In this document: one piece after another, positions 31,880 through 59,854 of the stretch
Numbering within the stretch: the first letter of the stretch is position 1
How the letters are laid out: each line of letters starts with the position of its first letter
Position numbers and translations under genes: made by a program
The notes under the pieces: generated by a model
Told to the model about the DNA's origin: nothing
The model's input: only the letters and a program-made list of their open reading frames with translations
Database searches by the model: none
From: Lytechinus pictus
Taxonomy: Eukaryota
DNA: 64,000 bases
Assembly (NCBI RefSeq): GCF_037042905.1
Contig: NC_087251.1
Location: 28,274,001-28,338,000 of the forward strand
Reading direction: 5' to 3'

Positions 31880-31956
31880 AAGGTTCTCACTGATGAACCA
31901 TCAAATCAAGTGTATTTACACTGGGTCGGGTTAGCTAGGCAATGTAATCATGATCA

Positions 31957-32565: not shown

Positions 32566-32793
32566 AGGTCCCATTCTCTAATATTTGAAGGCATAGCAAA
32601 TGATAGAGACTTCAAAGACATCACATTTTGGGCATATTAAAACACTTGTGAATTAACAGGGTGATAATGATAATAACAATCAACTTAAATGGAGGCCATT
32701 CATGGACCTCAATTACTTCTGGCTCCCTACCTTTATAGTATAGACATGTTTAAATACTTGTGATGATAACCAAATTCACCAAAATGATGTTAA

Positions 32794-33571
32794 CCCTAAT
32801 TCTCCCGGGGGGGGGGGGCCATAATGGCCCCCCCTCGACAATTTTCGCGATATATCCGCTGCGCAAATTTTTTTGACCTCGCCGCTCACTGACTTTTTAC
32901 TTTCAAGTCTCGCGCAAATTTTGAGACCAAATTTGTGACGACCCGATACGTGGTTACGACATTACGCGACATTACGTAAGTGCATGTCAGACCCAAAATT
33001 GCTCACAAACGTGATTTCATGTACAAATCCAATGCAAATTGTGTATTTAGCCAAAATTCATAAATGTATCATTATTTCTACTTTTACTGATTGAATTTAA
33101 TTAATTTTGCCTTGCTTGTGATCAGAATTAAGTCTGGAACGATTTCCATTGAAAAAACAATAAAAAAACAAAAAGTAAAAAAAACCAGGAAATACATAAG
33201 AAATTCATAAAACAATAAAATACATAAGAAATTGATTTCCAAACTGAAGTTTTTTTTAATTGCGATTGTTAAGAATGCTACAAAGAATATTTTAACCAAA
33301 AATTAGCATTCTAGGAGCTTTATTTAGTGAATTAGAGCAAAAAGTATGATTTATGCATAAATTAGCATAATTAATTCATATAAAATAAAATCTCATTATT
33401 TTGGAAAATTTTACCATACAGCCTTGTAGATTACATCGCACACAACCAGCGTGCAAATTTTTGCGTCGCTCGAGCGATCAGCGGCCAAAATCTTAAGGGG
33501 GGGCCATAATGGCCCCCCCCCCCCCCCCCCCCGGGAATGACAAGAATCAAAATACCCCGGGAGATTGAGGG
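32794..33571. mobile_element. piggyBac-type MITE
   Basis: TTAA TSD on both sides; TIR CCCTAATTCTCCCGGGG / CCCCGGGAGATTGAGGG; subterminal GGGGCCATAATGGCCCC palindromes. Confidence 0.85.
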
Positions 33572-35240
33572 TTAAATAGACCGAGACCAATCATGGATCA
33601 CCTTGAAAAGTAGGACCAACTATGAATAGGTAAAAAATATTGCACTTACTCTAGGCTTCTTAATACAGTTAATTGGTTCAACAGTGAGAACCTAAAATAC
33701 AGCTGCTATATGACTGATCTGTTTATGTTAGAAGATAGTTTTGTGTATAAAGACTAAAACAAAGCAATATAAATACACGCAACATATTGTAATCCTCTCA
33801 GCATAAAGAACACAAATATTGTATTACAAGTAGCATGAGAATGATTTATTAATCACTGTTGACAGAGAACACAAACATTGTATTACCAGTAGCATAAAAA
33901 TGATTTATTAATCATGGTTGATATGTCAGAGGTTGGGCTGCTATGTCACAGTCCAGTTAAACAAATATAATTTTGGAAGAGAGGTTTATAAATATATCAT
34001 AAATATCGTTATCACCAATTGAAAGAGACACCAAAATATATATTGTCATTATCTAAGCCAAAGCAAACTAGTACCAGCACCATTGCTTTTACTAACCGTT
34101 GCCCTGTATTCTTTTAAGAATTTGAGACAGGAGTGATTGTAGGAGAGAATGTCCTAGTCACAAAGGATGTCTTCTATATAAATCATGAATGGTAAATAAG
34201 ATATGTGCAATACCCCCACCCCTCCCCATGTCTGGCCAGGGCTTTTGAATCTTATCATCATTTGTAAAAGTAAGATAAATACAATGTTAGTATTAAAGAA
34301 CAAAGACAGAAATGGAATACAATGTAGTACAGGACAAATGAGACTGGTCAGAATTCCCCAAAATCACCAGCTTCTACCCATTCAATAACTACCGTATTTG
34401 GATGTGTCAGAATTGATCAGTTAATGCCTGATGAATCAAAAACAAAATTTTACAAAAAGATGCTGCCTTGACAACAAATTTTGTAAGAGCCAAACAGGAT
34501 AGAGGGACTGCTTTTCGTGGCGACCTGGGATATTCTACTTTCTCGTTCATTTTTATCACATTTTCATCAGATTTGTCAACAATTCTTATGAACAACATGT
34601 ACCGCTTTTCGCTGTCTTCAACGTGACCACTGTTCATTAATGGAAATGTCAAGTCCTTAAACATTGTGTCGGTCTGTTAGTTTTCTAAAATAGAAAGTGT
34701 TGTATGATGTTTTTAATACACACCTTGTAATATCCCAAAACAAATTCCCTATTGGACGACAGAATATGAAAGTAATTGAAAAACAAGGTAAATGCAATTA
34801 CTGAAAGATGAACTTTCTTCATTATTTGAGAAAAAAAAATCGACATGAAAGGACAAAAACTGTCCTTGGTAAAGACGAGCAGGCTCTCTTCATTTAACAA
34901 GCCTTGTTTAATTTTGGAGGATAGGTGTGACAATTATAATATTGCAGATAAATGCAAGGACTAAAGCAAAACTTGCTACAAGTGTGAGCATTGGTTATAA
35001 CAAAGATCACGTTAGAATTTGGGTTTAGTAAGTTCCTGGTGGGTGTTTCATAAAGCTATAAATTAAGAGCCTATTCCACAAGCAGAATCCCTACTTAAAA
35101 GCAGAATTACAATCACTGGAACCATGACATGATGAGCAACAGAAAAGGGATGCCATCCTCATGCAAGACAGTTGAAGGGAGGGAGGAATTCTCCCACAAG
35201 GTGTTGAGGGACAGACAATAAAAACATGAGCATCCCTCCT

Positions 35241-35427
35241 GTTGTGAAGACTAGAAGCAAAGGGGCCACAGAATGTTGTCATGCTAGCCACAATGAAGCC
35301 AGTTCTCGGAGTCACACGTGATGGGGAAAAAGAAGCCTGCCTTATACAAGCTATACGACTTCACAAACTGACCGTCGATCAGAGGGCCCAAAAGTATTTG
35401 TGCAAGAGCAAGTCACATTGTTGGAGT
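35241..35427 (+). pseudogene. piggyBac-like transposase fragment (frameshifted)
   Basis: Reassembled across frames: VVKTRSKGPQNVVMLATMKPVLGVTRDG-KKPALYKLYDFTK--VDQRAQKYLCKSKSHCW, matching the KPxxxxxYxxTKGGxDxxDQ...RW region. Confidence 0.7.
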
Positions 35428-35619
35428 CTGTGGACTCATTTGACAACCTGCACGAGATATGGAATGACAGGATCAAAGACCTTCATGTCTATCTGGACAT
35501 TTAGGATATTGAGGCAAATGCCTGTACTAACATGAATACTGATCATAATCATAATTGTTCATCGAAAACTAAAATGAAAATTGCCGGACTTAAATTAATG
35601 TTTGTGGTGTTAATAAGAT

Positions 35620-36250
35620 ATATGATTATGGCTTTTCACAAGACTTCATGGGAAAACATGATATAGTTCGTCTGAGCGAAAAGAAAACCGATTTGAATTT
35701 TTGAATATTTTCCTGGTTATCGTTTTTTGTTACAGCCCATAAAGGAACATTTCTATTGCCCTCTGTGGGACTCATGGATTAGCCATAATTATTTCTGATA
35801 GATTTGTGGGCCGTTTTTGAAATTCTGGACGATACTCAGTCAGAATCTATCTTATGGGTTAAACTGGACTTGAAAGGATTTTCTATTTTGATTGGATCAG
35901 TTTATGTCCAACACGGAGGGTCAAAGTACCATAGCATAAAAATCATTAAGTATTCAATGCAAATTCACTCAGTAATAAGGAACTTAAAGAGTTCAAATCG
36001 GGAAAAATTATTGGAAAATGATTAATAAGAAGAAAAAAAGATTCAGATTATATATCAAATGAACTATCTTTGCAGGACTTTTATGTCCATTTCAAAAATT
36101 TAGGTAATGGTAACATATCATCAAGCAATAATGATTCTGTAACATATCTGTATAAAGATTTTTCAACAGAGGAATTAGACAGAGCGACTGATATATCGGA
36201 AGTCATTAAGAAATTGAAACGGCTTAAAACTGATAAATCTTGAAGGGACA
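35620..36250 (+). pseudogene. CR1/L2-type LINE ORF2 fragments (APE endonuclease and pre-RT linker)
   Basis: SESILWVKLDLKGFSILIGSVYV and ELDRATDISEVIKKLKRLKTDKS*, interrupted by stops and deletions. Confidence 0.65.
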
Positions 36251-36259
36251 GCAGTATTC

Positions 36260-36544
36260 AGGATATCCATGATTCAGTCACATAACAAGAGTAAAGAATA
36301 CAACAGGGGCATGGATGCGATGAGGACAGAAACGTCGGCAAACCTACATCCTTCCACACTGCCATCCTGTGTTAGGAAACTGGAAGCGGCCGAATGGACA
36401 ATGATGAAACAGTTATTCACCACCGCCCTTTTTGTGGCAAAGGAAGAACTTTCGTTCAAGAAGTTCAGCCTACTGGTGACCCTCCAGCAGAAAAATGGAC
36501 TGAATCTTGGGTCCATGTACAGCAGTGATAATGCTTGTCGCAGG
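36260..36544 (+). pseudogene. hAT transposase fragment (ZNF862-like), exon-like with donor
   Basis: LFTTALFVAKEELSFKKFSLLVTLQQKNGLNLGSMYSSDNACR then gtaggt. Confidence 0.75.
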
Positions 36545-37035
36545 TAGGTTTTAATTTTTTTTTAAATGAAAAATATGAACAAAATTAAAATATATAGTCT
36601 ACTTGAAAGGAAATTCACTTAACTAATTTTTAGCACCGGTTACTGATTTTATTACGGTGAGTGTGAGATTGAAATTCAGGCCTAAATGAATTTCATATCA
36701 GATCTAAAGAATTTGGCAGGAAATTCTTTTGAAACGACATACAGATGATCACATAGAGACATATTTTTAGGTGACTGGTCTTTGCATCTACCTATATCAC
36801 ATCCAACACCCGGCTACAGTAATTAGTCAATATGTCCTAATCCAGTGGTGAAAATCTTCTATGATTGAAATTTTCAGCAGAAGGAAATGTCTTTCATGGA
36901 ATCATGTATACAAATGCAGTACATGACAGATTGTATATTTCTCCCTCACCTCGCACAGATGCTTTCTTGGGAGCATTTCTGGACCCAACTCCATACCAAA
37001 TTATTTTTTGTTTCATTTTCTTGTACTTTCTATCA

Positions 37036-37230
37036 GACCAAACAAATGGACAATGTGGAAATCTTCCTAGATTGTATTGTGGATGAGCTAAAGGAGGGGC
37101 ATCATCATTCATGCCCAAAAAAGATTTTGATATACACTAAGTGTATGAAGGCTTTCTCTGCTCTGTTCAGTTCCATCAGGGTAAAAAAAGGACAGTGGGT
37201 ATTTGCAGAGAATTGTAAGGATGATCCACA
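37036..37230 (+). pseudogene. Possible RecQ-like helicase fragment (as carried by AcademH transposons)
   Basis: IFLDCIVDELKE...PKKILIYTKCMKAFSALF resembles the RecQ motif-IV region; short and degenerate. Confidence 0.4.
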
Positions 37231-37311
37231 GTCGGACTACGACTTAAGACAGAGTCAAGAAACAGAAAAATCAAACATTGATACAACAAATAATGACGAA
37301 GAGTTATCTTA

Positions 37312-37650
37312 GGTTACAACCGAAGCAGATTGATACCTTCTCCATTCAAATAATTTTTTACTGATCATATCGCAGTTATGAAAGATAGCCTCCAGATAGA
37401 AGGTTGTGATGAATCGTTTCAAGAAAACCCAGAATACAATGAACCATTTTTCTCCAAATTCTCCTGTGAATACCTACCAACTTGCGTTCTGTGGTCTGCA
37501 ATAATGTTGGGGGATTTATCACGATATGTCAACCAAAAAGATACAGCTTTGTATTAGAGTGTGTATAAGAAACAAATCTCGGGAATACCCCGAATTATAG
37601 GTCATGCTGAGCAGCATTACATTCTTGAAAATAAGAATTTAAAAAAAAGT
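37312..37650 (+). pseudogene. Probable NOF/MULE-like transposase fragment (second copy at 40477-40820)
   Basis: NPEYNEPFFSKFSCEYLPTCVLWSAIMLGDLSRY...GHAEQHY resembles FB-NOF-type proteins (from memory). Confidence 0.45.
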
Positions 37651-40600
37651 GCAAGTAACCGGAATTACCAGATTATTTTTTTTGTCCATAGACTGTAGTG
37701 CTATTTTTAGGGACAAAGGGTAAGCTAATAAAATGGTGATATTCATGCACTAATATCTTGACAATTAATTTAACAATTGGCTTAAAATTTCATACGATTC
37801 CTGTTTGGCCTACAGGTGTGATATCATTACAACATTAGCTGGAAGATTAATTTATTCTTAAGATCCTGAATGAAGTAAAACAATCACTTTAACATGAAAT
37901 ACTCGTTAGCCCTGCCTAGGTCCCATTCCTCGTTTCGTTCAAATTTGTTAAAATTTCGAAGACAAGTGTCTGTGATCCATTATTGACCCCCTTACATTTC
38001 ATTGTCTAAAATCACTCTTCTGCGACCATCCGTCCACTATTTTGTCCATCTGAAAGCTACATATACATTGTATTATTTCAGCCTCCATATTCTCATTATC
38101 CTAGATGCTACATACTTTGAACAATATCAATTAAATAGTTTATGAGTTGGCCTTTCATATGCATCCAACAACTTTTTATATAAAAACTGTCTTCATGCTT
38201 GTATTCGAAATTCAAATTAAAAATTCTACTGTTTTGAATCCCCAAATCAAGACTAAAAACTTGTAAAATGGCATAACATTCTTACCTCAATTCCATTTTG
38301 TTCCATTTTCAGAGCATGTCTGCATCTTTCATGCATCAGTAACCATACATCTTTTTTGGAGTTATTTCAAAATTAGTGTGTAGGTTTTATTGGGATGCAG
38401 TGTATGTAAATTGAGGCCATTTCCTATTCCAAATACCTTTAAAACTTTGGAGAGACATTCTTCAAATTGTCACAGCATTCTTTGTTTTGTAAAATAGTTA
38501 AGGTAAAGATGCCATTTTGTCAAATAGTATATAATTTGTCATCCAACCCTTTTGTTTTTTCTAATCTACTCAAATTTCTGAGGTACATTTTGTCATTACC
38601 TTGGTAATGTCTCCTGCTTCATTGTTCCTGTCAATGATTGTAGTTTTAGTTAGGCTCTCTAATGTTTAGTTTAATTTTATTTTACAGCCATCGGTAGTAT
38701 TACCTTCTGTATATAGGACAGCTTCGAAGAGGAAGAGGAGTACATCTGCACCAAGCAGACCACCGAAAAAAAAGGCTGGTAAGGCCACAACAAAAACGGT
38801 GGTCTGCTTGGTCAGACCATCGTTTGTTGGTGGCAAAACCACAGTCCCATCCGCTAATGAGCTTGGGTACTTGCATGGAAAGGGGCTGGTGAGTGCAATC
38901 AATGTCTCAAAGTCCCTCAGTGCTGTTGGCATGCAGGAGGAAATTTCTTCCTGCTTTCAAGAGATGTTTGAGAAGCTGGATTTCAAATTTTTGAAGGTAT
39001 GTGAAATTTCATAATTCAAATTTCTGAGGTACATTTTGTCATTACCTTGGCAATGTCTCCTGCTTCATTGTTCCTGTCAATGATTGGAGTTTTAGTTAGG
39101 CTCTCTAATTTTTAGTTTTATTTTATTTTTCAGCCATCGGTAGTTTTACCTTCTGTATATAGGACGGCTTCGAAGAGGAAGAGGAGTACATCTGCACCAA
39201 GCAGAACACCAAAAAAAAGGCTGGTAAGCCCACAACAAAAACGGTGGTCTATTTGGTCAGACCATCGTTTGCTGGTGGAAAAACCACAGTCCCATCAGCA
39301 CATGAGCTTGGGTATTTGCATGGAAAGGGGCTGGTGAGTGCGATCAATGTGTCAGAGTCCCTTAGTGCTGTTGACATGCAGGAGGAAATTTCCTCCTGCT
39401 TTCAGGACCTGTTTGAACAGAATTTGATGTTCAAATTTTTAATTTAATTACCCATAGCACAAGAGGCAGTAGGGAGGAATCATTCCTCAGAGGACAAGAA
39501 TCACATGAATACAATCAGAAGCAGGGTCCTTGCCTCTATTCATGTCACATCCAACACCAAATTACAGTTATAAGACATTAATCAACATGTCCTCATCAAT
39601 GGTAAGAATCTTCAATGATGATTGAAATTTTCAGCAGTAGGAAAGGCATTTTATGGAATCATGGATACAAATTCAATACAAGAGTTCCTCAAGTATTCTT
39701 CTTATCTTTGTATATTTCTCTCTCACCCGTGTGATGCTTTCTTGGAAGTAATTCTGGACCCATCTACATACCAAACACCAACAGGATTACGGAATACATT
39801 ATCAGCCAACTGTGTAGCTATTACCCGGATCACAAAAGGCAGTAAGGAAGAATCATTCCTCGGTGGACAAGAATCATACGCGAATATAAGAACATCAGAA
39901 GCAGGGTCCTTGGTTCCATTCATGTCACACCCAACACCAGGCTACAGTTTTTAGAGAGAAATCAATATGTCTTCATCCAATGGCAAAAATCTTCTACAAT
40001 GACTGATATTTTAAGCAGTAGGAAAGGAATTTAATGGAATCATGGTTAAAAATTCGATACGTGATTTTTTTTAAATATACATTCTCAATTTGGTTATTTC
40101 TCCCTAATCTTGTACAGATGCTTTCTTGGGAGCAATTCTTGACCCGCGTCACACCAACAGTATTATGGAGCACATCATCAGTCAACTGTGCAGCTATTAC
40201 CAGGAGCACAAGAAGCAGTGAGGAAGAATCATTCCTCGGTGGACAAGAATCATACATGAATACAAGAACATTAGAAGCATGGTCATTGACTCTATTCATG
40301 TCACATCCAACACCCAGTTACAGTTATTAGAGATTAATGGTAAAAATCTTCTACAATGATTGAAATTTTCAACAGAAGGAAATGTCTTTCATGAAATCAT
40401 GGATATAAATGCAATACATGATTTCTTTATCTTTGGATCATTCCATGTCAAATCACCCCCCAAAAATAAAAAATTTGGTTACAACCGAAGCAGATTGATA
40501 TATGTACCTTCTCCATTCAAATCATTTTTTACTGATCATATCGCAGTTATGAAAGAAAGCCTCCAGATAGAAGGTTGTGATGAATCGTTTCAAGAAATCC

Positions 40601-43600
40601 CAGAATACAATGAACCATTTTTCTCCAAATTCTCCCGTGAATACCTACCAACTTGCGTTCTGTGGTCTGCAATAATGTTAGGGGATTTATCACGATATGT
40701 CACCCAAAAAGATACAGCTTTGTATTAGAGTGTGTATAAGAAACAAATCTCGGGAATACCCCCGAATTATAGGTCATGCTGAGCAGCATTACAATCTTGA
40801 AAATAAGAATTAAAAAAAAGTGCAAGTAACCGGAATTACCAGATTATCTTTTTGTCCATAGACTGTAGTGCTATTTTTAGGGACAAAGGGTAAGCTAATA
40901 AAATGGTGATATTCATGCACTAATATCTTGACAATGAATTCAACAATTGGCTTAAAATTTCATACGATTCCTGTTTGGCCTTCAGGTGTGATATCATTAC
41001 AACATTAGCTGGAAGATTAACTTATTCTTAAGATCCTGAAGGAAGGAAAAAAAATCACTTTAACATGAAATACTCGTTAGCCCTGCCTAGGTCCCATTCC
41101 TCGTTTCGTTCAAATTTGTTAAAATTTTGTAGACAAGTGTCTGTGATCCATTATTGACCCCCTTACATTTCATTGTCTAAAATCACTCCTATGTGACCAT
41201 CCATCCACTATTTTGTCCATCTGAAAGCTCCATATACATTGTATTATTTCAGCCTCCATATTCTCATTATCCTTGATGCTACATACTTTGAACAATATCA
41301 ATTAAATAGTTTATGAGTTGGCCTTTCATATGCATCCAACAACTTTTTATATAAAAACTGTCTTCATGCTTGTATTCGAAATTCAAATTAAAAATTCTAC
41401 TGTTTTGAATCCCCAAATCAAGACTAAAAACTTGTAAAATGGCATAACATTCTTACCTCAATTCCATTTTGTTCCATTTTCAGAGCATGTCTGCATCTTT
41501 CATGCATCAGTAACCATAAATTTTTTTTGGAGTTATTTCAAAATTAGTGTGTAGGTTTTATTGGGATGCAGTGTATGTAAATTGAGGCTATTTCCTATTC
41601 CAAATACCTTTAAAAATTTGGAGAGACATTCTTCAAATTGTCACAGCATTCTTTGTTTTGTAAAATAGTTAAGGTAAAGATGCCATTTTGTCTAATAGTA
41701 TATAATTTGTCATCCAACCCTTTTGTTTTTTCTAATCTACTCAAATTTCTGAGGTACATTTTGTCATTACCTTGGCAATGTCTCCTGCTTCATTGATCCA
41801 ATCAATGATTGTAGTTTTAGTTAGGCTCTCTAATGTTTAGTTTAATTTTATTTTACAGCCATCGGTAGTATTACCGTCGGTTTACCGCCCAAAGAGGAAG
41901 AGAAGAACATGTACCGGTACACCAAGCAGACCACCCAATAAAAAGGCTGGTAAGTCTACCACAAAAACGGTGATCTGTTTGGTCAGACCATCGTTTGTTG
42001 GTGGCAAAACCACAGTCCCATCCGCCAATGAACTTGGGTACTTGCATGGAAAGGGGCTTGTGAGTGCAATCAATGTTTCAAAGTCCCTCAGTGATGTTGA
42101 CATGCAGGAGGGAATTTCCTCCTGCTTTCAAGAGATGTTTGAGGAGAAGCTGGATTTCAAAATTTTTGAAGGTATGTGAAATTTCATAATTCAAATTTCT
42201 GAGGTACATTTTGTCATTACCTTGGCAATGTCTCCTGCTTCATTGTTCCTGTCAATGATTGGAGTTTTAGTTAGGCTCTCTAATTTTTAGTTTAATTTTA
42301 TTTTTCAGCCATCGGTAGTTTTACCTTCTGTATATAGGACAGTTTGGAAGAGGAGTACATCTGCACCAAGCAGACCACCAAAAAAAGGCTGGTAAGTCCA
42401 CAACAAAAATGGTGGTCTGTTTGGTCAGACCATCGTTTGTTGGTGGCAAAACCACAGTCCCATCCGCCAATGAGCTTGGGTACTTAAATGGAAAGGGGCT
42501 GGTGAGTGCGATAAATGTTTCAAAGTCCCTCAGTGATGTTGACATGCAGGAGGGAATTTCCTCCTGCTTTCAGGAGATGTTTGAGAAGCTGGATTTCAAA
42601 TTTTTGAAGGTATGTGAAATTTCATAATTCAAATTTCTGAGGTACATTTTGTCATTACCTTGGCAATGTTTCCTGCTTCATTGTACCAATCAATGATTGT
42701 AGTTTTAGTTAGGCCCTCTAATTTTTAGTTTAATTTTATTTTTCAGCCATCGGTAGTTTTACCTTCTGTATATAGGACGGCTTCGAAGAGGAAGAGGAAT
42801 ACATCTGCACCAAGCAGACCACCAAAAAAAAAGGCTGGTAAGGCCACAACAAAAACGCTGGTCTGCTTGGTCAGACCATCGTTTGTTGGTGGCAAAACCA
42901 GTCCCATCCGCCAATGAGCTTGGGTACTTGCATGGAAAGGGGCTGGAGAGTGCAATCAATGTTTCAAAGTCCCTCAGTGCTGTTGACATGCCGGAGGAAA
43001 TTTCCTCCTGCTTTCAAGAGATGTTTGAGGAGAAGCTGGATTTCAAATTTTTGAAGGTATGTGAAATTTCATAATTCAAATTTCTGAGGTACATTTTGTC
43101 ATTACCTTGGCAATGTTTCCTGCTTCATTGTTCCAATCAATGATTGTAGTTTTAGTTAGGCCCTCTAATTTTTTTAGTTTAATTTTATTTTTCAGCCATC
43201 GGTAGTTTTACCTTCTGTATATAGGACGGCTTTGAAGAGGAAGAGTACATCTGCACCAAGCAGACCACCAAAAAGAAAGGCTGGTAAGGCCACAACAAAA
43301 ACGGTATTCTGTTTGGTCAGACCATCGTTTGCTGGTGCAAAACCGGCGTACCATCAGCAAATGAGCTTGGATACCTGGATGGGAAGGGGCTGGTCAGTGC
43401 CATTAACTTGTCCAAGTCTCTTAGTGCTTGTGACGTGCAGGAGGAAATCTCCTCCTGATTTCAGGACCTGTTTGAACAGAATTTGATGTTCAAATTTTTA
43501 ATTTAATTACCCAGAGCACAAGAGGCAGTAGGGAGGAAACATTCCTCAGAGGACAAGAATCACACGAATACAATCAGAAGCAGGGTCCTTGCCTCTATTC

Positions 43601-43795
43601 ATGTCACATCCAACACCAAATTACAGTTTTAAGACATTAATCAACATGTCCTCATCAATGGTAAGAATCTTCAATAATGATTGAAATTTTCACCAGTAGG
43701 AAAGGCATTTCATGGAATCATGGATACAAATTCAATACAAGAGTTCTTCAAGTATTCTTCTTATCTTTGTATATTTCTCTCTCACCCGTGTGATG
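37312..43795 (+). repeat. Local tandem segmental duplication with nested shorter tandem units
   Basis: 37312-39735 is nearly identical to 40477-43795. A ~440-bp unit occurs 2x in the first copy and 4x in the second. A ~380-bp unit recurs at ~36795, 39541, 39921, 40297 and 43600. Confidence 0.92.
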
Positions 43796-44825
43796 GTGCT
43801 ATATCTAAAGGATAGATTTTGGCCAGCTTAACCAACATTGACGCTTCAATCTGGAGACAGATTCCAGCTTATTCAGGTTGATGGTTCAAGGGGAGAGGTT
43901 ACTACTGTTAGAACAAATGACCTAGTGCGGATAAGAGTGGAGTAGAAGACTCCTTTACAGCATGTCTGGATAATGACTGATGTGAAGAACCAATTAGTCC
44001 ACTGTGGAGAATCATGCCAACATCATATTTAAGGTGCTGCAGCACTTTACTTCCACATAGATCATATCATTAGTTATGTTGGAATGCTTCCTGATTCTAT
44101 TCTTCTGCTCACAGTGGGTGGTAAAGAGAAATGCAGCAAAAATGGAGAAACAAGCAGAATTGAAGGCCCTGGGAATTTCCTGTAAATTCTTAACCAAACC
44201 CTTGTTGCATCTTATTACAGCTGCAGAAAATATCCTTGACCTGAACAAAGCTCTTCACATCATTCAATTAAAACTCTAGGCACGTTACTAGGCCTCTCTA
44301 CTTCGAGGAGAGCCTGTCATTCCTGATGTCTTCTTGATCAAGGAGCTAGCAACAACAGCTAGTGGAGGAATTATGGGAGCTTATTGAAAAAGATTACAAG
44401 GGGCCTGTAAAAAATGCATTCAGGTACATTATAATAAGAAACACTTCCCTGTTGGCAGAACAACTGCATGGCCTATAGCTCATGATGTTTGGGAGGAATA
44501 GGATCCTCCCCAGATACCTCAAGTTCTAGCTGCTGAATATCTGCAGAAGGTAAAGCAAGGATTTGTTGCTTTAAGGATTCCCCATGCTAATGGAACTATT
44601 GATAATTCACATATTCCAAACTGGTGGACAATAAATATGATGATTTCAACAGGAAAGGCTTTTTCTCTATTTAATAATGCATGCACAAATCAATCAATGA
44701 TAGAATTATCACTTTTTTTTAAGTTTTGAAAATTCCTAATTAATATCAAGCTCTCACGTATATATTTTGCAATTATGTTTCCAATCCATCACCTCATCCC
44801 TAATTGTTTTAATTCATACCAACAG

Positions 44826-45393
44826 GTCATCAGTGTAAGCATAAGCTATATCAAATGGCTTTGCCAAGAGATGTCCAGAACCAGAGCTATGTATGGTCAA
44901 CTGATCCGCAACTATAACAAGGTGGCACAACTGGCTTTCGCATTGCAGATGTACGAGATAAATGAGCAGTTCCCATGATATCATCTACACAGACGAAAGT
45001 ACATTCTGGGTGGAGAACAATGCTCGCTATTATCATGGGAGAGTCGGTACAGCCAACAAGAAGGTGGGGAAGCCTAAACACCCCTACAAGGTGCCCGTTT
45101 GGGGTGGCGTTTCAAGAAAACGAACCACTCGTCTGGCCATCTTTGACGGTACTATGCGTAAAGAGTTCTTCACCGATGAATTGCTACAGCAGCACCTGCT
45201 GCTCCCCTTCATCCGTGAGGCTTATCCCGAAGGTTGCAGACTGATGATGGACAATGATCCCAAGCACAGCAGTCAGTACGCTATGGAGTTCATGAGGGAG
45301 AACAACATCAATCAGTGGCGCAACCCAGCAGAGAGTCCTGATGCAAACCTGATAGAACACATCTGGGGAAACATGAAAGTCTACAAAAGGAGA
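44826..45393 (+). pseudogene. Tc1-family (DD34E) transposase fragment, frameshifted
   Basis: YGQLIRNYNK...IIYTDES...KPKHPYKVPVWGG...MDNDPKH...SPDANLIEHIW; 34 residues between the second D and E; frameshift near 44975; no TIRs seen. Confidence 0.9.
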
Positions 45394-46899
45394 GTGAGTA
45401 TTTACTCATTGATATTATGAAATCAAGATAACTTCAAATTTTGTACACACGGAACTTAAATACACTCACAAAGTCACAATAAAGCCTAAAGTGATCTTAT
45501 GAACAACTAGATATTTATAATTCAATAAGATGCATTGCTTCACTAAACCATACTGTCGGCCATAAATATATGCGAACTGGTGAACTGATGATTGTTTTAC
45601 TTTGGAAGTTCATTTAATTCATACAATCGCTCTGGTATTGAAATGAGTTACATTTAATACACTTAGTCAATTATTTCTATATTCTTAAAGCAGTTGCATA
45701 TTGAAATTACTGTTACTCCATATAAGATGTGGGTATGGGGAAACAAATGTGTTCACGAAATTACTTCACATACATGGAACTGTTTCACAGAATTATTGCA
45801 TCACAAGTAATGCGGGGTCATGCTGGTGAAATCGATTATGTTATCATGATGTACAATTCTCACCGGTAGGTTTGTTAGAATCATTCATTGGTATGACAGT
45901 AGCATTATTATAAGTGTAATATGGATCATTGCTTCTTCGTAGAACCACACACCATCGATTTGGTTCACAAACGTTTTTATTTTTCTTGGTCCTTTCAATT
46001 TAATACATGTAGCATGACAAGCCAAGGACGAAAGACCAGCTGATAGCAGGTCTCAAGTACTGCAGGACAACACCACCGACACGTGAGCAAATTGAACGGC
46101 ACCTCAACAATGTCTACCACATCTAAGCGAAAATTATTAATAAAGAGTAGACAGGACAACGTATTAGCAAATCGATCAAGTCTACATGTACTTGCAGTAC
46201 TTTCCTTCAAATTGAAAAAAACATTTTAGCAGTGTTGTGTGGGGGGTCCATTCAATTTCAATACTCGAATGCGTTGTAATTGAAGATGGTTCTCTTTATT
46301 TCATTTTCTCCTTCGTTCTCTCTTCTTTCCTCTTAACATCATATCTGTTTTATTTTGTTGAAAGATCAAATGCTAGGAAGTGAGAACGAGCGGCGGATGG
46401 GAGTGGGGTAGGTAATACGTTTATGTCAAGCAACTTTACAAATTTATCAATCGGTATTAAAATGCCCGCATAAGCTAAAACATGGTTCAATTCACTATAC
46501 AACGACACACCAGTGATGATTTTCCAGACCAAATGCAATTTATGCGGTTATTTTGCAGGAAATCGGGTTGTCCAATATTTTTTTATATTGTGTTTTAACT
46601 ATTGCAATAGCCTGAACATTGAGGAACATTAATTAGTAGTAGTTTGGAAATACCAATTTCTTATAGAGATATTTGTTCACATTTTTAAATGAAATATGTA
46701 TCGGAAACATCACTTTGGCTTTTATTGTAAACTGACCAACACACTAACTACACCTGATATTAAAGGGACTTCTGATATCTAAGGTACTTCTGATATATTA
46801 ACTGTCAAACCAAGGGTAATGAGAGACAAAAGAGTCAGATATTTCTTCACCAGGCTGCTATTGGTAAAGTAATGTATACTCAAAGTAGTAATAGAAACC

Positions 46900-47440
46900 A
46901 ATATTCCAATCTCATCTCCAGAAACCAAATAATAGACAGAATTTGACAGATGAAGTTGAGAGTGAGATGGAGTGGCATAAAATGGAAAGAAAAAAGAGAA
47001 TAGCTAGAACAAGAATAAATGATGACAAAAGGAAGTGTTGAAAACAAAGAAGGGCCACATTCAGACCACATAAGAAGTAAGGAGCAGAATGAAATCAGAA
47101 ATGAGAAAAAGTCAATAGCAGTAGTAATAAGAAGTGTTGGTAAACAAACTTGCATAGGCCAAATTAACCCAACAAGTCTTATCAAAGAAATTCATTCGAG
47201 GTATGGTGAAGTGAGTGAAATTGTGAATGAAAGAAAAAAGGTAGCCCGAAATTACCTTGTATAAGCAAAATACAAATGGAAATGATTTTAAGAATGTCAT
47301 AACTAGCTCAGACTCCTGTTAAGGTCACAAAATATCTGCCGAAACCAACTCAAATACGTGATATCAATCAAAGAGTTGACAAACTAATTAAGAATGAAGA
47401 ACTCACTGAACTGATTAAAAGGCTATCGCCACGCTGAAAT
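46900..47440 (+). pseudogene. Possible I/Nimb-clade LINE ORF1 (gag-like) fragment
   Basis: IAVVIRSVGKQTCIGQINPTSLIKEIHSRYGEV; A-rich coding strand with stops. Confidence 0.4.
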
Positions 47441-48139
47441 GATTGATACACATCTGAAAAAAAATCACACAGACACACACAAGGAAAATTACATCATTTT
47501 GAGAGCGAGGGTGATTTGTTTTAATTATCAAACTCAGCTTCTCAAGCTATTGTATTATTTTGATTGTTTTGGTTGATGATATGGATCGTTTCTTAGTTTG
47601 ACAGCGTCAAAGTACATCTCAACAGCCTTCTGCTTCGACCTCTACTTAAAAAAAAAAGGTGTTCAGGGAAAAGACAATTCTGCATTGGAAAAAGGACTGG
47701 ATCTTGTGTGAAATGGCTGATAGCCTATTGATCCACTGCATAACATGCAGAACTTCAGGTGCGGTCACTACAACCGCTCGAGGGGCTGCGCAGACAGACC
47801 CGTTCCACCTACATGTATCATGACAATTTTTGGGGAAAGGGATGCTTCAACAGATGCATGTGTTCTCTTGGTTTTGTTTGCCAGAAATAATGTTGAAGTC
47901 TAAAAATAACCATGACTTCTGGAGAAACAACTCATTGTGTAATTAAAAATGATCAGCCCTACCTTTACAAAACTTGTATTTGATTATTCAATATTTCGGT
48001 TTTTTTTTCAAAATGTTCATCTGCAGGGAAAAGTCCTTCAGACCCAAATATATGCAAATAAGTGTAATACAGGCAAGAGTTCCTCTCCGAAACAGTGACA
48101 CCTGCCATCAAAGAGGACATTGTCTCTATTATTTCTATA

Positions 48140-48460
48140 TCCCCTAAAGATTGGGAATGCTGCCACTAGAAATCTGCCGTCTGAGGCAATATTGTATGCT
48201 GGAGCAAGTCTAACCAAGGTCTTACATGTACTCCACCATATGAATCTGAAGGCGATCACCAATAACACCTTTCTGGAGTACCAGTCAACCTACCAACAAC
48301 CTGCCATCATAAGGGTCTACGAATGAGAACAAAGGTCTCTCCTCAGACAGTCAGAAGGAGAAAAGTTGGTCTTGGGAGGAGATGCAGATTCACCAAGGCA
48401 CTCAGCCAAATATGGAAGCTATGCCCTGATGGAAATGAAAATGAAGGCCATCAATGCGCA
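48140..48460 (+). pseudogene. DDE transposase fragment of the GDGRxDSPGHSAKY class (probably Kolobok)
   Basis: GNAATRNLPSEAILYAGASLTKVLHVLHHMNL...QPAII...LVLGGDADSPRHSAKYGSYALME, with a stop and a frameshift. Confidence 0.65.
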
Positions 48461-49004
48461 GCTTGTATGGCGGGCCATTGGTGCCATTATTATACAAAGT
48501 TGTATAGTTTTAACCAATCAGAACGTGAAAAACCATACAGGTATGGCCGGCCAACAGATTTCGCCATATAGACGTAAGGTTGTATAGAATATACCAGTCT
48601 ACCACCTGATAAAGAGGTCCAAAGAGAAGGTGAAACTGACAACAGCAACAACAATGGCAACGATAGTGTCGAGAGGAATGACCCTGACGATGACTTCCAG
48701 ACTCAATCCAAAGATGCAGAACTGCTCTCCAGCATGCCTCTGGGATCAATGGACTGGATGATGCTGTAGACCATCTTTTTCAATCATTGAGAAGAACAAG
48801 AATAAATATATGTCAATGTTTAGAGGATCAAATGATTAAGTCATGCTATACTATCATAGGATAACCTACTAGACAACTGTAGATTCTGTAAAGGATCCAT
48901 GCGAGAAGAGAGCAAATATGCCAGGTATGACCAATTTCTACATCGCTGTGCAGTTATCAGATTGAGACCTTAGTGAATCCTGTCCACTTATAACAAATCT
49001 ATTC

Positions 49005-50350
49005 ACAGGAAGAGGAATATCACAGACATCTCAAAGCTCAAGAACTGTTAAGTGACCCACATGTGGAAGGAGTCAATGGTGACCCATATATACTGGTCAG
49101 TTGCATCAACTCCAGATGGGAATGGCAATATGATGGTGTCAAAGTACAAGTCGGTGTTCAACCGCATCAGAGATGTACATGAAGGCTTGTTTCCTAAATG
49201 CGGCAAATTCTATTGGACCTCACCAAAACCTATATCTTACTGGGTTCATTTTATAGAACAAAACCTATATCTACTGGGTTCATTTTATAGAAGAACCTTA
49301 TTTAATTGTTCCTATTACAGTTAAACCACTGTTGCTATATGTCAATTGATGGAAATAGGGCTCAATTAAAGGCTTCAATACAGATTAACTGGATCATTTC
49401 TGTTGTGATCTTTTACTAGACAGAGACATTAGAAGTGTGTGTTTGCAATTTTTCAACCCTAATGTAGCTGACACAGCTACAAGAGGGATTTTGTGCATAA
49501 AAATCACATGTACATAGAAAATAACAGTAGATGTAATGTTAACTCAATAGGAAAATAGAAGTTTTAGATTGAAACCTTTGTGAATACTGTCCACTTGAAA
49601 CAAATCAATTTACAGGAAAAAGAAGTTCACAGCCATCTCAAAGCTCAAGAACTGTGAAGTGACCAACATGTGGAAGGAGTCAATGGTGACCTACATATAT
49701 ACTGGTCAGGTGCATCAACTCCAGATGGGAATGGCAATATGATGGTATCAAAGTACAAGTCGGTGTTCAACCGCATCAGAGATGTACATGAAGGCTTGTT
49801 TCCTAAATGTGGCAAATTCTATTGGACCTCACCAAAACAAATCTGTTTACAGGAAAAAGAATTTCACAGCCTTTACAAAGCTTAAGAACTGATATGTGAC
49901 CCATATGTGGAAAGAGTCAATGGTGACCCATATATACTGGTCAGGTGCATCAACTCCAGATGGGAATGGCGATATGATCAGGGGTATCAAAGTATAAGTC
50001 AGTGTTCAACCACATCAGAGATGTACAAGTACATGAAGGCTGTTTTTTCCAAAATGTGGCTAATTCCATTAGCCCTCACTCAAACCAATACCTACTTGGT
50101 TCAAAATTATCTTGGTTCATTGTAAAGATGAATCTTATTCATTTGCTTCTTTTACAGTTAAACCGCCATTGCTTTGCGCCTGTTGTTGGACATACGGCTC
50201 AATTAAAGGCATCAATACAGATTAATTGGATCGTTTCTGCGTCAAACCTGGATGGGAATGGTGATATGATCGTGTCAAAGTACAAATCGGTGTTCAACCA
50301 CGTCAGAAATGTTTATGTACGTACACGAAGGCCTCTATCCTAATTTTAAT
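49005..50350 (+). repeat. Four tandem, decaying copies of a downstream exon of the same transposase class
   Basis: WKESMVTHIYWSVASTPDGNGNMMVSKYKSVFNRIRDVHEGLFPKC at ~49050, 49670, 49907 and 50245. Confidence 0.75.
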
Positions 50351-51549
50351 CCATTAGCCCTCATCAAAATGTATACCTACTTGGTTAAAAAAAATTTCCT
50401 CCCAAAGTTCCTCTTTTCTAAGCTGGTTATTTTATCACTTTTCTATAATTCCCCCAATCAGACCTATTTGGAAATGTTTGGCAGGATTCACATTATTTAA
50501 AAAGATTGATATTAATTTTGGTTTTCCACATGTAAAAAAATTCAAGCAAGTATTTATAGAAATACGTAAAGGAAAGAGAATATACTGTTCACTTGAGACA
50601 TCACTTATTTCTTCTTTTTTTTGTGCAGGACAAATCTTGAGCAAGCTGTAAACTTTTCTAAGTTTTGTTTAGAATAAAGTCTTTCATTTACAGGTTTTTT
50701 TTTAAACTAGTGTACTACACAAAACCATACCATACAAACTCTGATTACTATTCTCGTTATTATATTATATATTATTTGTTTTTCATAGGATTTTTGTGGT
50801 GACTTTCTGTCAGAATTCTCGGCCTTCATGGCCAGTGACGCCAGACAAGCCTCATAGGACCAGCCAGGAAGTTCACCATCATTTGATGATGAGCATGATT
50901 GAAAACGGTCTCCTGCTCAATGTCTTGGAAAGAAGAGGATGCATTTATGTTACCTGTTATAGTACTCATTAGCTGTATTGCATTCAGAGTACTAATCATA
51001 CGTCTACAACAGATGCCTCGCTTCTTTGCCTATTTTTCTTTTTGCACGTCTTTATCCTAGAAAAATATATATTTTAGTGTCTCTTTCAATGATGTCTGGA
51101 ATTTTACTGTAAAAGTAAAAACCAGCATAAGCCAAACCAGCACAGGCGAAAAGAAAACTGTGCATAAATATAAGGTAATCACAATTCCTCTCTCTCATCA
51201 TTCACTTTGCTAGACTAATCAGTCTAATGTAAATAAATATTTGTTTGATAAAGAAAAAAATACTCTATGCATCTCAATAACTTTGAGCTGCTAAATGAAT
51301 GAATGAATTTTTTTTTCTTTCAATTATTGCATTTTAGGGTACCATTTGAAGTGGAAACTCTGCATCCAATGAACATAAGTAATTCCTTATTCATATTGAT
51401 TTGATATTTTGTATTGTCATGTAAACATAAAATAACACAATTTTGATAGTCTAAATGACCAACATTTACAGAGTTCGCACTGTAGTTGGGTTTGTAACCT
51501 GCTTTAGTCGTCTTCCTAGGCCGTTTGTCAATCTAGTGTCACCAGGACA

Positions 51550-51714
51550 TCATGAGATGGACGAGTTGTGATAGTCTTGCTTCCATAAGAATTCCGGATG
51601 GTAGGGGGGTCCTTCTGTACAGCTCTTTGAACAGGTGTAAATCAACAGTGTCCCCCAATCAATACTTGCATCAAGGCTATCTACTTCCAAGTGGGTGAGG
51701 AGCTGGGGCATAAT
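51550..51714 (-). CDS. PDCD2: PDCD2 coding exon 4 (stop)
   Basis: cag| IMPQLLTHLEVDSLDASIDWGTLLIYTCSKSCTEGPPYHPEFLWKQDYHNSSIS*. Confidence 0.96.
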   Translation of the reverse strand: MMPQLLTHLEVDSLDASIDWGTLLIYTCSKSCTEGPPYHPEFLWKQDYHNSSIS

Positions 51715-54700
51715 CTGGGGGGAAAAAAAACAGATGTTTTCTCCAATAAAAGGAAAAATAATTTCTGAAGTGATGTTCATATTGTGGGGTAAGTGAAAAT
51801 GTCAGAGAGTTTTCACATTCTTTTCGTGTAAATTCAAGTGGAATAATACATGAAAGGGTCCACTGCAAAGGATTACTCTTCACATGCTCGAATGATCAAA
51901 ATGTGACCAAAAAATAGCTGAAACATTTTGGTCAAATTTGTATGCAGTCCCATAAATGTATTTCAGTGAGGTGCATGTGTGCAACAGCACTAAATGATTG
52001 AAACACTAGTTCAAAAACTCACATCTATGCATATTATGTAATTCAGTTATTTTTTTTCAAATACTGTTATCATAATAACATACAGTGTAATTTCAAAGTC
52101 CCCCCCCCAAAAAAAAAAAAAACTATATATATATCAAGATCACATTTTGTAATCATCAGCATTCATGGGAAATAGATCATAAACTTGTCAAAAATTGTGA
52201 AAATAACTGGAAACAATTAGAATAAACCCAGACAAGTGGAACTAGCTAACTCATTGTACCAGTTAAAGAATTTCTTCACCTCAGCTTTGAAAATTTACAT
52301 GGAAAGTCAGATGACTTTACAATATGACAATATGCATGAAATGAAGAGTGCATTATGTGATGTCTGTTTGTCATAAAACCCATGCCATCCTTGATGGGTT
52401 AAGCACAGAATGGTTTCAAATTTCCCATGAAAGATCATACATGCAGAAAATACGAAACATAATCATTATTTATAAACACAAATCTATGAGATATCTACAG
52501 ACAAATAAACCATTTTATTTTTCTAGGCCTGAACATCAAATCACCTGGAATTCAAATTGTCTTTTTGCCCCACAGGAACAAGGCACGATATCCTTTTCAC
52601 TTGGCTGATCATTTGCAGATACGAAGAGGGGTCGACCGCCCTTCTGATACCGTAGAACCTAAAGAATAAAAGTTCATTGAATAATTAGCATCATTCTTGT
52701 GACAAAGAAAACAGTAAGAGTAGCATTCATCTTGGCTTAGTCCCGATTTGTGGGGTGGGGGGGGGAGGTGGAAGGGGCAGAAATTGCTAACCCCCTTCCC
52801 TTCATAATAGACAGTAGTCAGTTGTACAGTCCTTCAATTCGGGGTTGCACTGAAATCAGAAAAAAAAAGTTGAAAATGCACTTGCAAGGAATATTGTTTG
52901 TAACTTTGAGGTGGACTTGACCTTTAAGTAGACAATAAAATAAATTGGAATAATTTCATTTGCTTATAACAGTCCCATGGCCTGTTGGTTGCAATCAGTA
53001 GATTTCATGCAATAAGGTCAGCAGCTCACAGTTACATGTAAATACAGATCTTTTTTGTTTCTGCAGGTGTGCATCAGGATTGAATCTTAAACTACTTGCC
53101 CCTGATTTATTAACTTGAATATATTTTACATCAAAGCAGACATACTTGATCAGGATCATGAGAAATCCTCTTCTTAAAGTTCATGAACTGTACATCATCA
53201 TCTGTCTCTTTCCTAGCCATTCTATCAAGATCCTTGGTGCTCATGTAGCCATTCTCCAGTTCTACTGCAGTTTGGACCAGACCGGCACCAACTAGTCTAA
53301 GGTCTTCATTACTAGAACCCTTCTCTATGTTCTCTTCTGCTTCTTGAGCAGCATATTCCTCACTTTCTGGTTCTGTCACAAGTTCAAACTCTGGAAAGAG
53401 GAATTTATTGTTGGCTGGGGGAGTGGCATCATGAAGACCTATCAAATCAAAAGAAATAAATGCTGTTGAGAAAGCAACACTCAGCTAAAGATTTGACCTG
53501 GTGAGCAACTAAAACTTATTTGTCTGATGGGGAAACGGAATAGTACAGCATTTGCAAATGTTTATTCAAGCAGTCTTTCACAATGCAATATTTTTCGAAA
53601 ACTGGTTTGAAATCACTTGAAAGCAGGGTTGTAATAAAAAACGTTTTTTATTAAAAAAAACAAATAAAACGTTTTTTATTGTTTTAAAACGTTTTTTTTT
53701 CCAACGAACGATGAAATTTTCTGTAAATAAATTAAACTATACACTTAATACAGTACAATTTAAGCTGCTGATGTTTTAAATTAATTTTTAGAGTAAGTAA
53801 AAGATAACTACATTTTTTGTTACTGAATTTCCAATAGAAAAGTTCATATTTTCCCCCAAATTACTAAATCATTGAAATTGAATGCAAACAAGTAAGTTGA
53901 CATTTTATAAGTTTATTCCTCATACATTTACATACATGTACATACTTTTGGGTCTCGTCAATCTAGGGGGTAAGAAGAATTCGCACAATGTAAGAAAATA
54001 ACATAATCTATAGACTATGTGCTTTCAAAGCTTAAAGGGATGGTCCGGGCTGAAAATATTTATAGCTTAATAAATAGAGTAGAATTCACTGAGCAAAATG
54101 CCGAAAAATTTCATCAAAATCGAATAACAAAAACAAAGTTATTGAATTTCAAAGTTTAGCAATATTTTGTGATAACGGTCGTCATGAATATTCATTAGAT
54201 TAGGTGGGGAGATGATGTCACGTCCCCACTTGTTCTTTTGTATTTTATTATATCAAATTAGGTTTATTCAAATTTTTTCCTCCAAGAACTAGAAAAATTG
54301 GATTGACAACTGATTTAGTGCATTAGATATTCATTGCTGCAACTTATTTCATTATAAGGGAGACATATTATTCACACAAGTATGAAATAATGAAAAAAAA
54401 TATGACTTTATGTAATAACATACGAAAAAGGAAAGTGGGGATGTGACATCATCAGCCCACCTAATGAATATTCATGACGACTGTTTTCACAAAATGTTGC
54501 TAAACTTTAAACTTCAATAACTTTCTTATTTGTTATCCGAATTTGATGAAATTTTTCGGCGTTTTGCTCAGTGAATTCTACTCTATGTATTAAGATATAA
54601 ATATTTTCAGCCCGGACCATCCTTTTAATTTGATTTTAATCAATTTTACCAATTTTAGTGCATGAAATACAAGTTTGGGTTTAAATTGATAAATAAACCC

Positions 54701-59479: not shown

Positions 59480-59854
59480 GATGATCCACGTGTGTACATA
59501 ATTATTTCTATGGGTGGGGCATGGGGCTACTTGGTCGATAGATTTTATCTCCATACACCGGGCTCCGTAAGGTCAGGAATAAAAAAATCCATAACAAAGT
59601 AAGCATGGTATAAAAACTTTATTAAAAGATTCCTTATTAACAATCAGCGATAGAGTGAATGGAGGAGTATTTTGAATAGAATAAAATAAAATGTAATACT
59701 AGACTTAAATCATGTGACACAGGGGCAACTTGTTTAACGGCAACAAATCAAATAAAACTTTGGGTTTTTTGGTGTGTGTGTTTGTGTGTAGGAGGGGGGG
59801 GGGGTGGTCACTTCTTGTGCAAAGGCAATTATGATAGCATTTTTTTTATAATTC

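What the first reader, a model, noticed from the sequence alone, without database searches (positions are those of the whole stretch)
35200..50400. Candidate uni-strand piRNA cluster: co-oriented mosaic of fragments from many unrelated transposon families downstream of PDCD2
Seen in sequence: about 15 kb of short coding fragments from unrelated TE families, joined end to end, with no TIRs or TSDs that I could find. They are piggyBac (35241), CR1/L2 ORF2 (35620), hAT/ZNF862-like (36260), RecQ-like (37036), NOF/MULE-like (37312, 40477), an unknown exon x6 (38688-43500), Tc1 DD34E (44826), I/Nimb-like ORF1 (46900) and Kolobok-like (48140; 49005-50350). Every fragment I could orient is on the + strand, as is the L1 derivative at 31093. 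The intact MITEs that saturate the flanks are nearly absent here. Established knowledge: strongly strand-biased fragmented TE mosaics with tandem duplication typify uni-strand piRNA clusters such as Drosophila flamenco, where a long transcript reads the TEs antisense. Inference: a - strand transcript, either PDCD2 read-through/extended 3' UTR (stop at 51550) or an independent promoter, would be antisense to all fragments. That would make the block an immune-memory library against the same superfamilies whose MITEs fill this window. Drosophila Zfrp8/PDCD2 has been linked to the piRNA pathway, which may be coincidence.
Basis: partly seen in the sequence, partly recalled or inferred. Interest (0 to 1): 0.8.

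Follow-up and report, generated by a model that had tools for sequence, protein, structure and literature searches.

The report
Antisense transposon archive behind PDCD2
Behind the PDCD2 gene of a sea urchin lies a 17-kb patchwork of broken pieces from twelve unrelated sequence families, mostly jumping genes, that all face one way and are copied into RNA from the opposite strand; it likely serves as a source of small silencing RNAs (piRNAs) made by run-on transcription of that gene, but the small RNAs themselves could not be tested.

Summary
Observation largely confirmed. Between convergent genes AIDA (+) and PDCD2 (-), 35.1-50.6 kb holds internal slices of 12 families, 10 with transposon-type parents. 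All are sense on + (35 of 35 blastx hits); minus-frame searches gave only antisense shadows. New families: a DUF6729 element, Harbinger, an unnamed 1,105-aa family, one unknown exon. The RecQ-like call found no support. Common repeats cover 0% of the block against 22-27% of the flanks. Stranded RNA-seq (one study) puts 99% of block coverage on the PDCD2 strand, out to about 31 kb; no canonical AATAAA lies within 4.8 kb of the PDCD2 stop. Best reading: a read-through uni-strand piRNA precursor like mammalian piC-DoGs and mosquito core clusters (0.55). No small-RNA data were available, no single molecule links gene and block, and most slices are too diverged to match present copies well. Unexplained: a genome-unique 27-bp inverted repeat brackets the block. 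The scan noted at least eight similar loci elsewhere in this genome (unchecked), so this is one of a class, not a one-off.

The parts
51550..59572 (-). PDCD2 coding exons (host gene, likely driver of the read-through); stop at 51550-51552
   Evidence: Pfam PDCD2_C E 1e-12, zf-MYND, spliced reads 51714/52545 and 52656/53144; the 5' end was not mapped
30400..51549 (-). Minus-strand transcribed region (long 3' UTR plus read-through); the end near 30.4-30.9 kb is inferred
   Evidence: 99% of coverage on the PDCD2 strand; first AATAAA after the stop at 46721; cluster of three at 30425-30444
51064..51090 (-). Right arm of a genome-unique 27-bp inverted repeat
34018..34044 (+). Left arm of the same inverted repeat (26 of 27 alike)
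31076..31896 (+). Young ORF1-only LINE derivative with poly(A) tail and 17-bp target-site duplication, antisense to the read-through
   Evidence: RNA on minus strand
35129..35415 (+). piggyBac transposase slice, frameshifted
   Evidence: 38% aa to L124, which lies in a PF13843 match
35600..36240 (+). LINE ORF2 slice (endonuclease, then linker; CR1/L2 label recalled)
   Evidence: relatives carry PF03372; 90% DNA over 145 bp to L014
36243..36749 (+). hAT (zf-C17orf113 / ZNF862-like) slice including 205 bp of intron
   Evidence: 84% DNA to L001; relatives carry PF25431 and PF05699
36777..37000 (+). Slice of a multi-copy DUF6729 element; further copies at 39449-40397 and 43508-43718
   Evidence: 70-75% DNA to L008-L012; parents 97% alike over 7.6 kb
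37312..37632 (+). Slice of an element carrying a UCH protease domain (NOF-like label recalled); second copy 40477-40761
   Evidence: 43% aa to L024/L110
38541..43499 (+). Unknown exon with upstream intron, 6 copies, inside nested tandem duplications (82-94% alike)
   Evidence: 80% DNA to L006; Atlas hits are unnamed animal proteins
43781..43930 (+). Exon slice of unknown origin
   Evidence: 48% aa to L021
43930..44345 (+). Slice of an unnamed multi-copy 1,105-aa ORF (transposase by inference)
   Evidence: 34-48% aa to L142/L143; no Pfam family; uncharacterised echinoderm relatives
44445..44668 (+). PIF/Harbinger transposase slice
   Evidence: 43% aa to L144, E 2e-10; parent hits PF13359 below its cut-off
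44826..45417 (+). Tc1/mariner transposase slice with a 152-aa open frame
   Evidence: PF13358 E 4e-15; 40-46% aa to L136-L139
46723..47412 (+). ORF1 slice of an RNase H-bearing (I-group) LINE
   Evidence: 72% DNA to a young family, copies 98-99.5% alike
48143..50599 (+). Slices of a THAP + PF20700 element (Kolobok-like label recalled), one exon in 4 copies, introns included
   Evidence: 63-79% DNA to L007
26084..29200 (+). Last exon and 3' UTR of AIDA, the convergent neighbour and strand control
   Evidence: PF14186 in an upstream exon, sequence, first mates on minus; the 3' end is approximate

Best explanation
The block is a one-way mosaic of transposon slices that is transcribed antisense, on the PDCD2 strand, likely by run-on transcription from PDCD2, and the long RNA is likely cut into antisense piRNAs that would silence matching transposon transcripts. 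Shown: co-orientation, lack of common repeats, minus-strand RNA from the gene to about 31 kb, no AATAAA for 4.8 kb after the stop, DNA origin of several slices (introns kept), later tandem duplication. Inferred: weak termination at PDCD2 made a trap; elements that landed antisense were kept, then trimmed by deletion to internal coding parts, while sense copies and MITEs were lost; the young LINE insertion at 31.1 kb would be an early stage of the same process. Much of the archive is old, so only part of it would still hit living families.
For: 35 of 35 blastx hits in 12 families on +. Six minus frames searched across 33.6-38.5 and 43.75-51.4 kb gave only antisense shadows of the same families plus one stop-ridden match over an intron-like stretch. 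99.0-99.4% of block coverage has the first-mate orientation of spliced PDCD2 reads, while AIDA shows the opposite. Contigs of run X1 hold spliced PDCD2, no PDCD2 intron, and all 30 bins of 33.6-53.6 kb. Only 2.9% of arbitrary start points run 4.8 kb without AATAAA. Repeat cover 0% against 22-27%; 29 of 40 arbitrary loci have no hit to the transposon library and none has more than 2 labels. AATAAA is no commoner on the sense strand (12 against 17) and AIDA's expressed 3' UTR tolerates common repeats, which weakens a passive filter. Same layout as validated clusters (PMC11615739 sections 9 and 10; bioRxiv 2022.08.22.504762 sections 7 and 14).
Against: No small-RNA data. No read or contig spans gene and block, and coverage is thin (180-196 reads per run from 6% of each run, one study). 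In total RNA the distal block is about 10-18% of PDCD2 exon depth, which ordinary read-through could give. Slices are diverged: 28-mers within 3 mismatches of the best fetched relative number 0 for Tc1, piggyBac, Harbinger, the L143 family and the NOF-like piece, 10 of 603 for the I-group LINE, 15 of 922 for DUF6729. The density comparison used a library seeded with the block's own parents; the unseeded library found nothing in the block. Minus-frame some searches ran with a stricter first look. The RNA is not U-rich overall (32% U, like the flanks), and AATAAA on the transcribed strand is not below compositional expectation. 36% of the block is unassigned.
Confidence: 0.55

Rival explanations
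1. Passive filter without a defence role: PDCD2 has a long 3' UTR and leaky termination, and the region grew only by insertions that do not harm the message. Sense pieces and two-sided MITEs would make the mRNA a silencing target or add processing signals, so only antisense coding remnants stayed.
For: Explains orientation and MITE loss without positive selection; most slices are old and poorly matched to living copies; distal RNA is low; in mouse, transposon content behind genes is not generally tied to read-through (PMC11615739 section 10).
Against: AIDA's expressed 3' UTR and the distal 30-33.6 kb of the same RNA carry MITEs; sense orientation would add no AATAAA; the PDCD2 duplicate on the same chromosome has no such mosaic behind it; tandem amplification of slices is not predicted.
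Confidence: 0.22
2. Same piRNA role, but the precursor is a separate long non-coding RNA from its own promoter just downstream of PDCD2, as for flamenco.
For: No molecule links gene and block; coverage dips at 46.9-47.6 kb in all three raw runs, near the first AATAAA signals; X1 contigs are deeper in the distal block than on PDCD2, although contig depth is a poor measure of level.
Against: Coverage runs on from the last exon without a gap and falls with distance in total RNA; the dip lies beside alleles that differ from the reference (joint 47713-48144 in X1); deeper distal signal is what oligo-dT libraries gave for mosquito read-through clusters (bioRxiv section 7).
Confidence: 0.1
3. One event, not a trap: the 17 kb between the 27-bp inverted arms is an inverted segment or a single relic composite element, so co-orientation arose elsewhere or earlier and the RNA is incidental.
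For: The arms bracket all 12 families and occur nowhere else in the genome at up to 2 mismatches; inverted duplications mark inversion breakpoints in flies (PMC1885836, abstract).
Against: No target-site duplication outside the arms; no second copy of the block or its ends; the LINE derivative outside the arms has the same orientation; a marginal alignment suggests native PDCD2 UTR runs through the right arm (18 of 500 shuffles score as well); 8 of 40 arbitrary loci also hold a 26/27 inverted pair, several of them repeats; it still leaves the co-orientation of 12 families unexplained.
Confidence: 0.08

Closest known systems
piC-DoG, piRNA clusters downstream of genes in mammals (Konstantinidou et al. 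2024, PMC11615739; abstract and sections 9, 10 read)
   Same: Densely packed transposon fragments antisense to a read-through that extends a spliced host gene past its end.
   Different: Those hold L1, ERV1 and ERVK and reach over 50 kb with piRNAs shown; here about 21 kb, mostly DNA-transposon slices, no LTR piece found, piRNAs not shown.
Read-through core piRNA clusters of mosquitoes (Qu et al., bioRxiv 10.1101/2022.08.22.504762; abstract and sections 7, 14 read)
   Same: Intergenic cluster starting directly behind an expressed gene on the same strand; stronger RNA signal at the far end in oligo-dT libraries.
   Different: Enriched for antisense non-retroviral viral elements; chromatin and knock-down evidence exist there, none here.
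flamenco and flam-like unistrand clusters (van Lopik et al. 2023, PMC10643416; abstract and section 8 read)
   Same: One-strand bias of transposon content, antisense to the precursor.
   Different: Those target Gypsy LTR elements in ovarian soma; flamenco's own promoter and size of hundreds of kb are recalled. This block has no Gypsy piece found and seems gene-driven.
Antisense Tirant insertions in host 3' UTRs (Rafanel et al. 2026, PMC13226689; abstract only)
   Same: Host transcription through an antisense insertion is enough to start piRNAs, whatever the gene; the LINE derivative at 31.1 kb resembles this stage.
   Different: Single recent retroviral insertions, not an old multi-family mosaic.

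Membership tests
Uni-strand piRNA cluster | Produces abundant 24-31-nt PIWI-bound RNAs with 1U bias from one strand | not testable with these tools
   No small-RNA run was offered
Uni-strand piRNA cluster | Transposon fragments strongly biased to one strand | tested here: met
   12 of 12 families, 35 of 35 hits on +; minus frames gave shadows only
Uni-strand piRNA cluster | Long RNA from one strand, antisense to the fragments | tested here: met
   99% of coverage on the minus strand with controls in both directions; one stranded study
Uni-strand piRNA cluster | Sequence able to target living transposon families | tested here: inconclusive
   Exact runs of 15 nt or more in 7 of 13 pieces, against fetched relatives only; 15 contiguous pairs are the slicing minimum in PMC10338343 (passages read)
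piC-DoG / read-through cluster | Begins directly behind an expressed gene on the same strand | tested here: met
   First slice ends 950 bp from the PDCD2 stop; coverage continuous by bin
piC-DoG / read-through cluster | Precursor is one molecule with the host mRNA and depends on the host promoter | tested here: inconclusive
   No spanning read or contig; no long-read or promoter data
flamenco-like cluster | Content dominated by antisense Gypsy LTR elements | tested here: not met
   39 ORFs from integrase-bearing loci gave no hit in the block by blastx or profile; the library is partial
Multi-copy composite (Pack-type) transposon | Ends shared with other copies in the genome | tested here: not met
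   The arms occur twice only; no long second copy
Multi-copy composite (Pack-type) transposon | Target-site duplication flanking terminal repeats | tested here: not met
   Flanks outside the arms differ

The most novel reading that the evidence does not exclude
Sea urchins keep a genome-wide set of gene-driven antisense archives built from short, terminus-free DNA slices of mostly cut-and-paste transposons, taken up or trimmed so that many families are sampled per kilobase and favoured slices are amplified in tandem: a compact, acquired immune memory unlike the nested LTR heaps of flies and mammals, with this locus as a strand-proven example.
Probability: 0.2. Interest if true: 0.8.

Novelty: new variant of a known kind. 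Interest (0 to 1): 0.5.

Why it matters
[quoted passage not shown] If piRNAs come from here, read-through clusters extend to an invertebrate deuterostome, and they hold mainly DNA transposons rather than retroelements. The block is almost all unique sequence in a genetically tractable urchin (a genome protein is 100% identical to a Lytechinus pictus record), so one small-RNA library would test it directly, as would deleting the block or inserting a strong poly(A) site behind PDCD2.

Tried and rejected
Pfam on 141 plus-strand and 129 minus-strand ORFs found only Tc1 and PDCD2_C above cut-off: too insensitive alone. An unseeded library of piggyBac, RT and integrase ORFs found nothing in the block on either strand. 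RecQ-like piece: no relative in the genome, PDB, the representative library, the Atlas (best 0.86) or the protein search. The 44061 ORF found no relative by word search but did in the genome. Intronic antisense bias rejected: the block lies between two convergent 3' ends. Strand-specific purge of poly(A) signals not seen. U-richness not seen except in the I-group slice (43%). A suspected minus-strand Kolobok-like piece at 50.8 kb did not beat shuffles. The idea that the arms mark an insertion that displaced the native poly(A) site was not supported: the PDCD2 duplicate does not align beyond the left arm. The arms fold poorly alone; pairing between them was not folded. No Rfam match in 26-56 kb. 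No RNA holder was on record in the run index; this is no evidence either way. Helitron capture was considered from recall and set aside: cargo is transposon rather than host exons and no second copy exists; Helitron ends were not searched for systematically. Wei et al. 2012 was not held and is known only through the review. No supplements were read; cluster tables in them could bear on the novelty claim. PMC4726551, bioRxiv 2026.01.28.702291 and 2026.02.07.704324: abstracts only.
Full report
Setting. The window lies on contig C7 of an 812-Mb animal genome; a long ORF from this genome is 100% identical to a Lytechinus pictus record. AIDA runs on + and ends near 29 kb. PDCD2 runs on - with its stop at 51550. 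The block sits between their 3' ends, so it is not an intron.

What is in the block. DNA searches, which ignore strand, found relatives for six families. I fetched them and took orientation from their own ORFs: hAT 84%, LINE linker 90% over 145 bp, the six-copy exon 80%, a DUF6729 element 70-75%, an RNase H-bearing LINE 72%, a THAP + PF20700 element 63-79%. Protein searches added piggyBac, the NOF-like piece, an exon matching L021, an unnamed 1,105-aa family, Harbinger and Tc1. Ten have transposon-type parents; the L006 and L021 exons are of unknown origin. The labels CR1/L2, NOF, Kolobok and L1-type are recalled, not tested. The RecQ-like call found no relative in five searches. About 64% of 35060-50600 is assigned.

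Orientation. All 12 families and 35 of 35 blastx hits are sense on +; p 0.0005 for 12 of 12, and 0.03 for the 6 strand-neutral ones alone. To guard against looking only at plus frames, all three minus frames of 33.6-38.5 kb and 43.75-51.4 kb were searched against the genome. They returned antisense shadows of the same families and one stop-ridden match over an intron-like stretch (the last three with a stricter first look). 38.5-43.75 kb is duplicated material and was covered by Pfam and blastx only. Plus frames were searched for 34.5-37.5 kb (one frame) and 43.9-46.7 kb.

Controls. Common repeats sampled from 40 arbitrary 10-kb loci cover 0% of 33.6-51.4 kb, 22% of 1-33.6 kb and 27% of 51.4-64 kb; the loci themselves have a median of 17%, 2 of 40 at zero. 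RNA depth agrees: several bins in 23.6-33.6 kb pile up thousands-fold, none in the block does. With one library, 29 of the 40 loci have no transposon-protein hit and none has more than 2 labels. That library was seeded with the block's parents and so favours the block; the unseeded part found nothing in it.

RNA. Three rRNA-depleted paired runs of one study gave 180, 196 and 189 reads on 33.6-53.6 kb from 6% of each run. Spliced PDCD2 reads have the first mate on + (27 of 27), AIDA's 3' UTR has it on -, and 99.0-99.4% of block coverage has it on +. The block is therefore transcribed on the PDCD2 strand, antisense to every slice, out to at least 31 kb. Depth is roughly 27-43% of PDCD2 exon level at 47.6-50.9 kb (one bin inflated by tandem copies) and 10-18% beyond (exon level is my estimate). 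Contigs of run X1 from another study contain spliced PDCD2, show no intron signal, and cover all 30 bins; X5 from a third study covers the distal part thinly. Contigs show presence only. No splice joint was seen in the block and no molecule spans gene and block. The first AATAAA after the stop is 4.8 kb away, and three cluster at 30425-30444 where the signal fades; 2.9% of arbitrary starts go that far without one, though variant hexamers lie closer.

How it was built. The hAT, L006 and THAP-element slices keep intron sequence, so they came as DNA, not as spliced cDNA. None has a terminus; some skip internal parts of the parent; most are broken by stops and frameshifts. Nested tandem duplications followed (72-94% alike). 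At the far end a LINE derivative with few substitutions against its relatives sits complete with tail and 17-bp target-site duplication, in the same orientation. I infer insertion followed by deletion, with retention of antisense coding parts. Other individuals differ structurally, including a MITE end joined at 44677.

Against the reading. No small RNA could be examined. Slices are old: within 3 mismatches per 28 nt of the best fetched relative are 78 of 118 windows for the LINE linker, 194 of 480 for hAT, 244 of 774 for the L006 exon, 58 of 297 for the first THAP-element slice, but 10 of 603, 15 of 922, 8 of 1308 or none for the rest. Seven of 13 pieces have an exact 15-nt run, the slicing minimum in PMC10338343 (passages). 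Either the targets are extinct or the archive is largely spent. The RNA is not U-rich overall and poly(A) signals are not depleted beyond composition.

Unexplained. A 27-bp inverted repeat, 26 of 27 alike, brackets the block at 34018 and 51064 and occurs nowhere else at up to 2 mismatches. There is no target-site duplication. An inversion scar (PMC1885836, abstract), a templated copy or a relic terminus are all open. An old PDCD2 duplicate 62-75 kb before the window shares the first 250 bp or so of 3' UTR and has no mosaic behind it; whether its UTR aligns through the right arm is marginal.

Comparison. The layout matches piC-DoGs in mammals (PMC11615739, sections 9 and 10) and mosquito read-through clusters (bioRxiv 2022.08.22.504762, sections 7 and 14) better than flamenco (PMC10643416, section 8). 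It differs in being short, old, made mostly of DNA-transposon slices, and without any LTR piece found. Membership is unproven because the defining small RNAs are untested. Searches listed no map of echinoderm piRNA clusters; a review cites clustered 28-nt piRNA-like RNAs in another urchin. The scan's notes list at least eight similar loci in this genome; I did not check them. They supplied the papers and lower the uniqueness of this locus.

Verdict. A real, strand-proven antisense archive; likely a read-through piRNA source (0.55), with a passive filter as the main rival (0.22). New variant of a known kind, interest 0.5.

Noticed in passing
L015-L016 (G000:C7 about 28.1995-28.2126 Mb, + strand): Old inverted duplicate of PDCD2 with several exons, 60-70% aa, at least one in-frame stop: probably a pseudogene.
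   Followed up: partly
window 34018-34044 and 51064-51090: Genome-unique 27-bp inverted repeat 17 kb apart; on the minus-strand RNA its one mismatch would be a G-U pair.
   Followed up: partly
window 44660-44677: Reads and a contig from other individuals join this site to a MITE end like the one at 52910: a polymorphic insertion absent from the reference. Further allele differences at 47713-48144 and 50903-50979.
   Followed up: no
window 31076-31896; L186, L187: ORF1-only LINE derivative; the window copy is further deleted at a 4-bp microhomology. The L186 copy sits inside an I-group LINE.
   Followed up: partly
L008-L012, L119: Young 7.6-kb multi-copy, multi-exon element carrying DUF6729, copies 87-98% alike, three of them on C7 within 0.5 Mb of the window; superfamily not identified.
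   Followed up: no
L142, L143: Multi-copy intronless ORF of about 1,105 aa with no Pfam family and uncharacterised relatives across echinoderms; probably an unclassified transposase.
   Followed up: partly
L110 4828-9250: Locus with a hAT-like ORF (by eye) followed by the NOF-like part and a UCH protease domain.
   Followed up: no
window 26620-26900: Highly expressed SINE-like repeat in the AIDA 3' UTR; hundreds of molecules end at 26626-26632, probably from other copies.
   Followed up: no
window 48498-48587: Short repeat between two THAP-element slices, 78-82% like copies at C2:7.08-7.09 Mb; orientation and nature unknown.
   Followed up: partly
L013 and L014: Contig C239 and C7:26.06 Mb are 100% identical over 9.2 kb, likely an assembly duplicate.
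   Followed up: no
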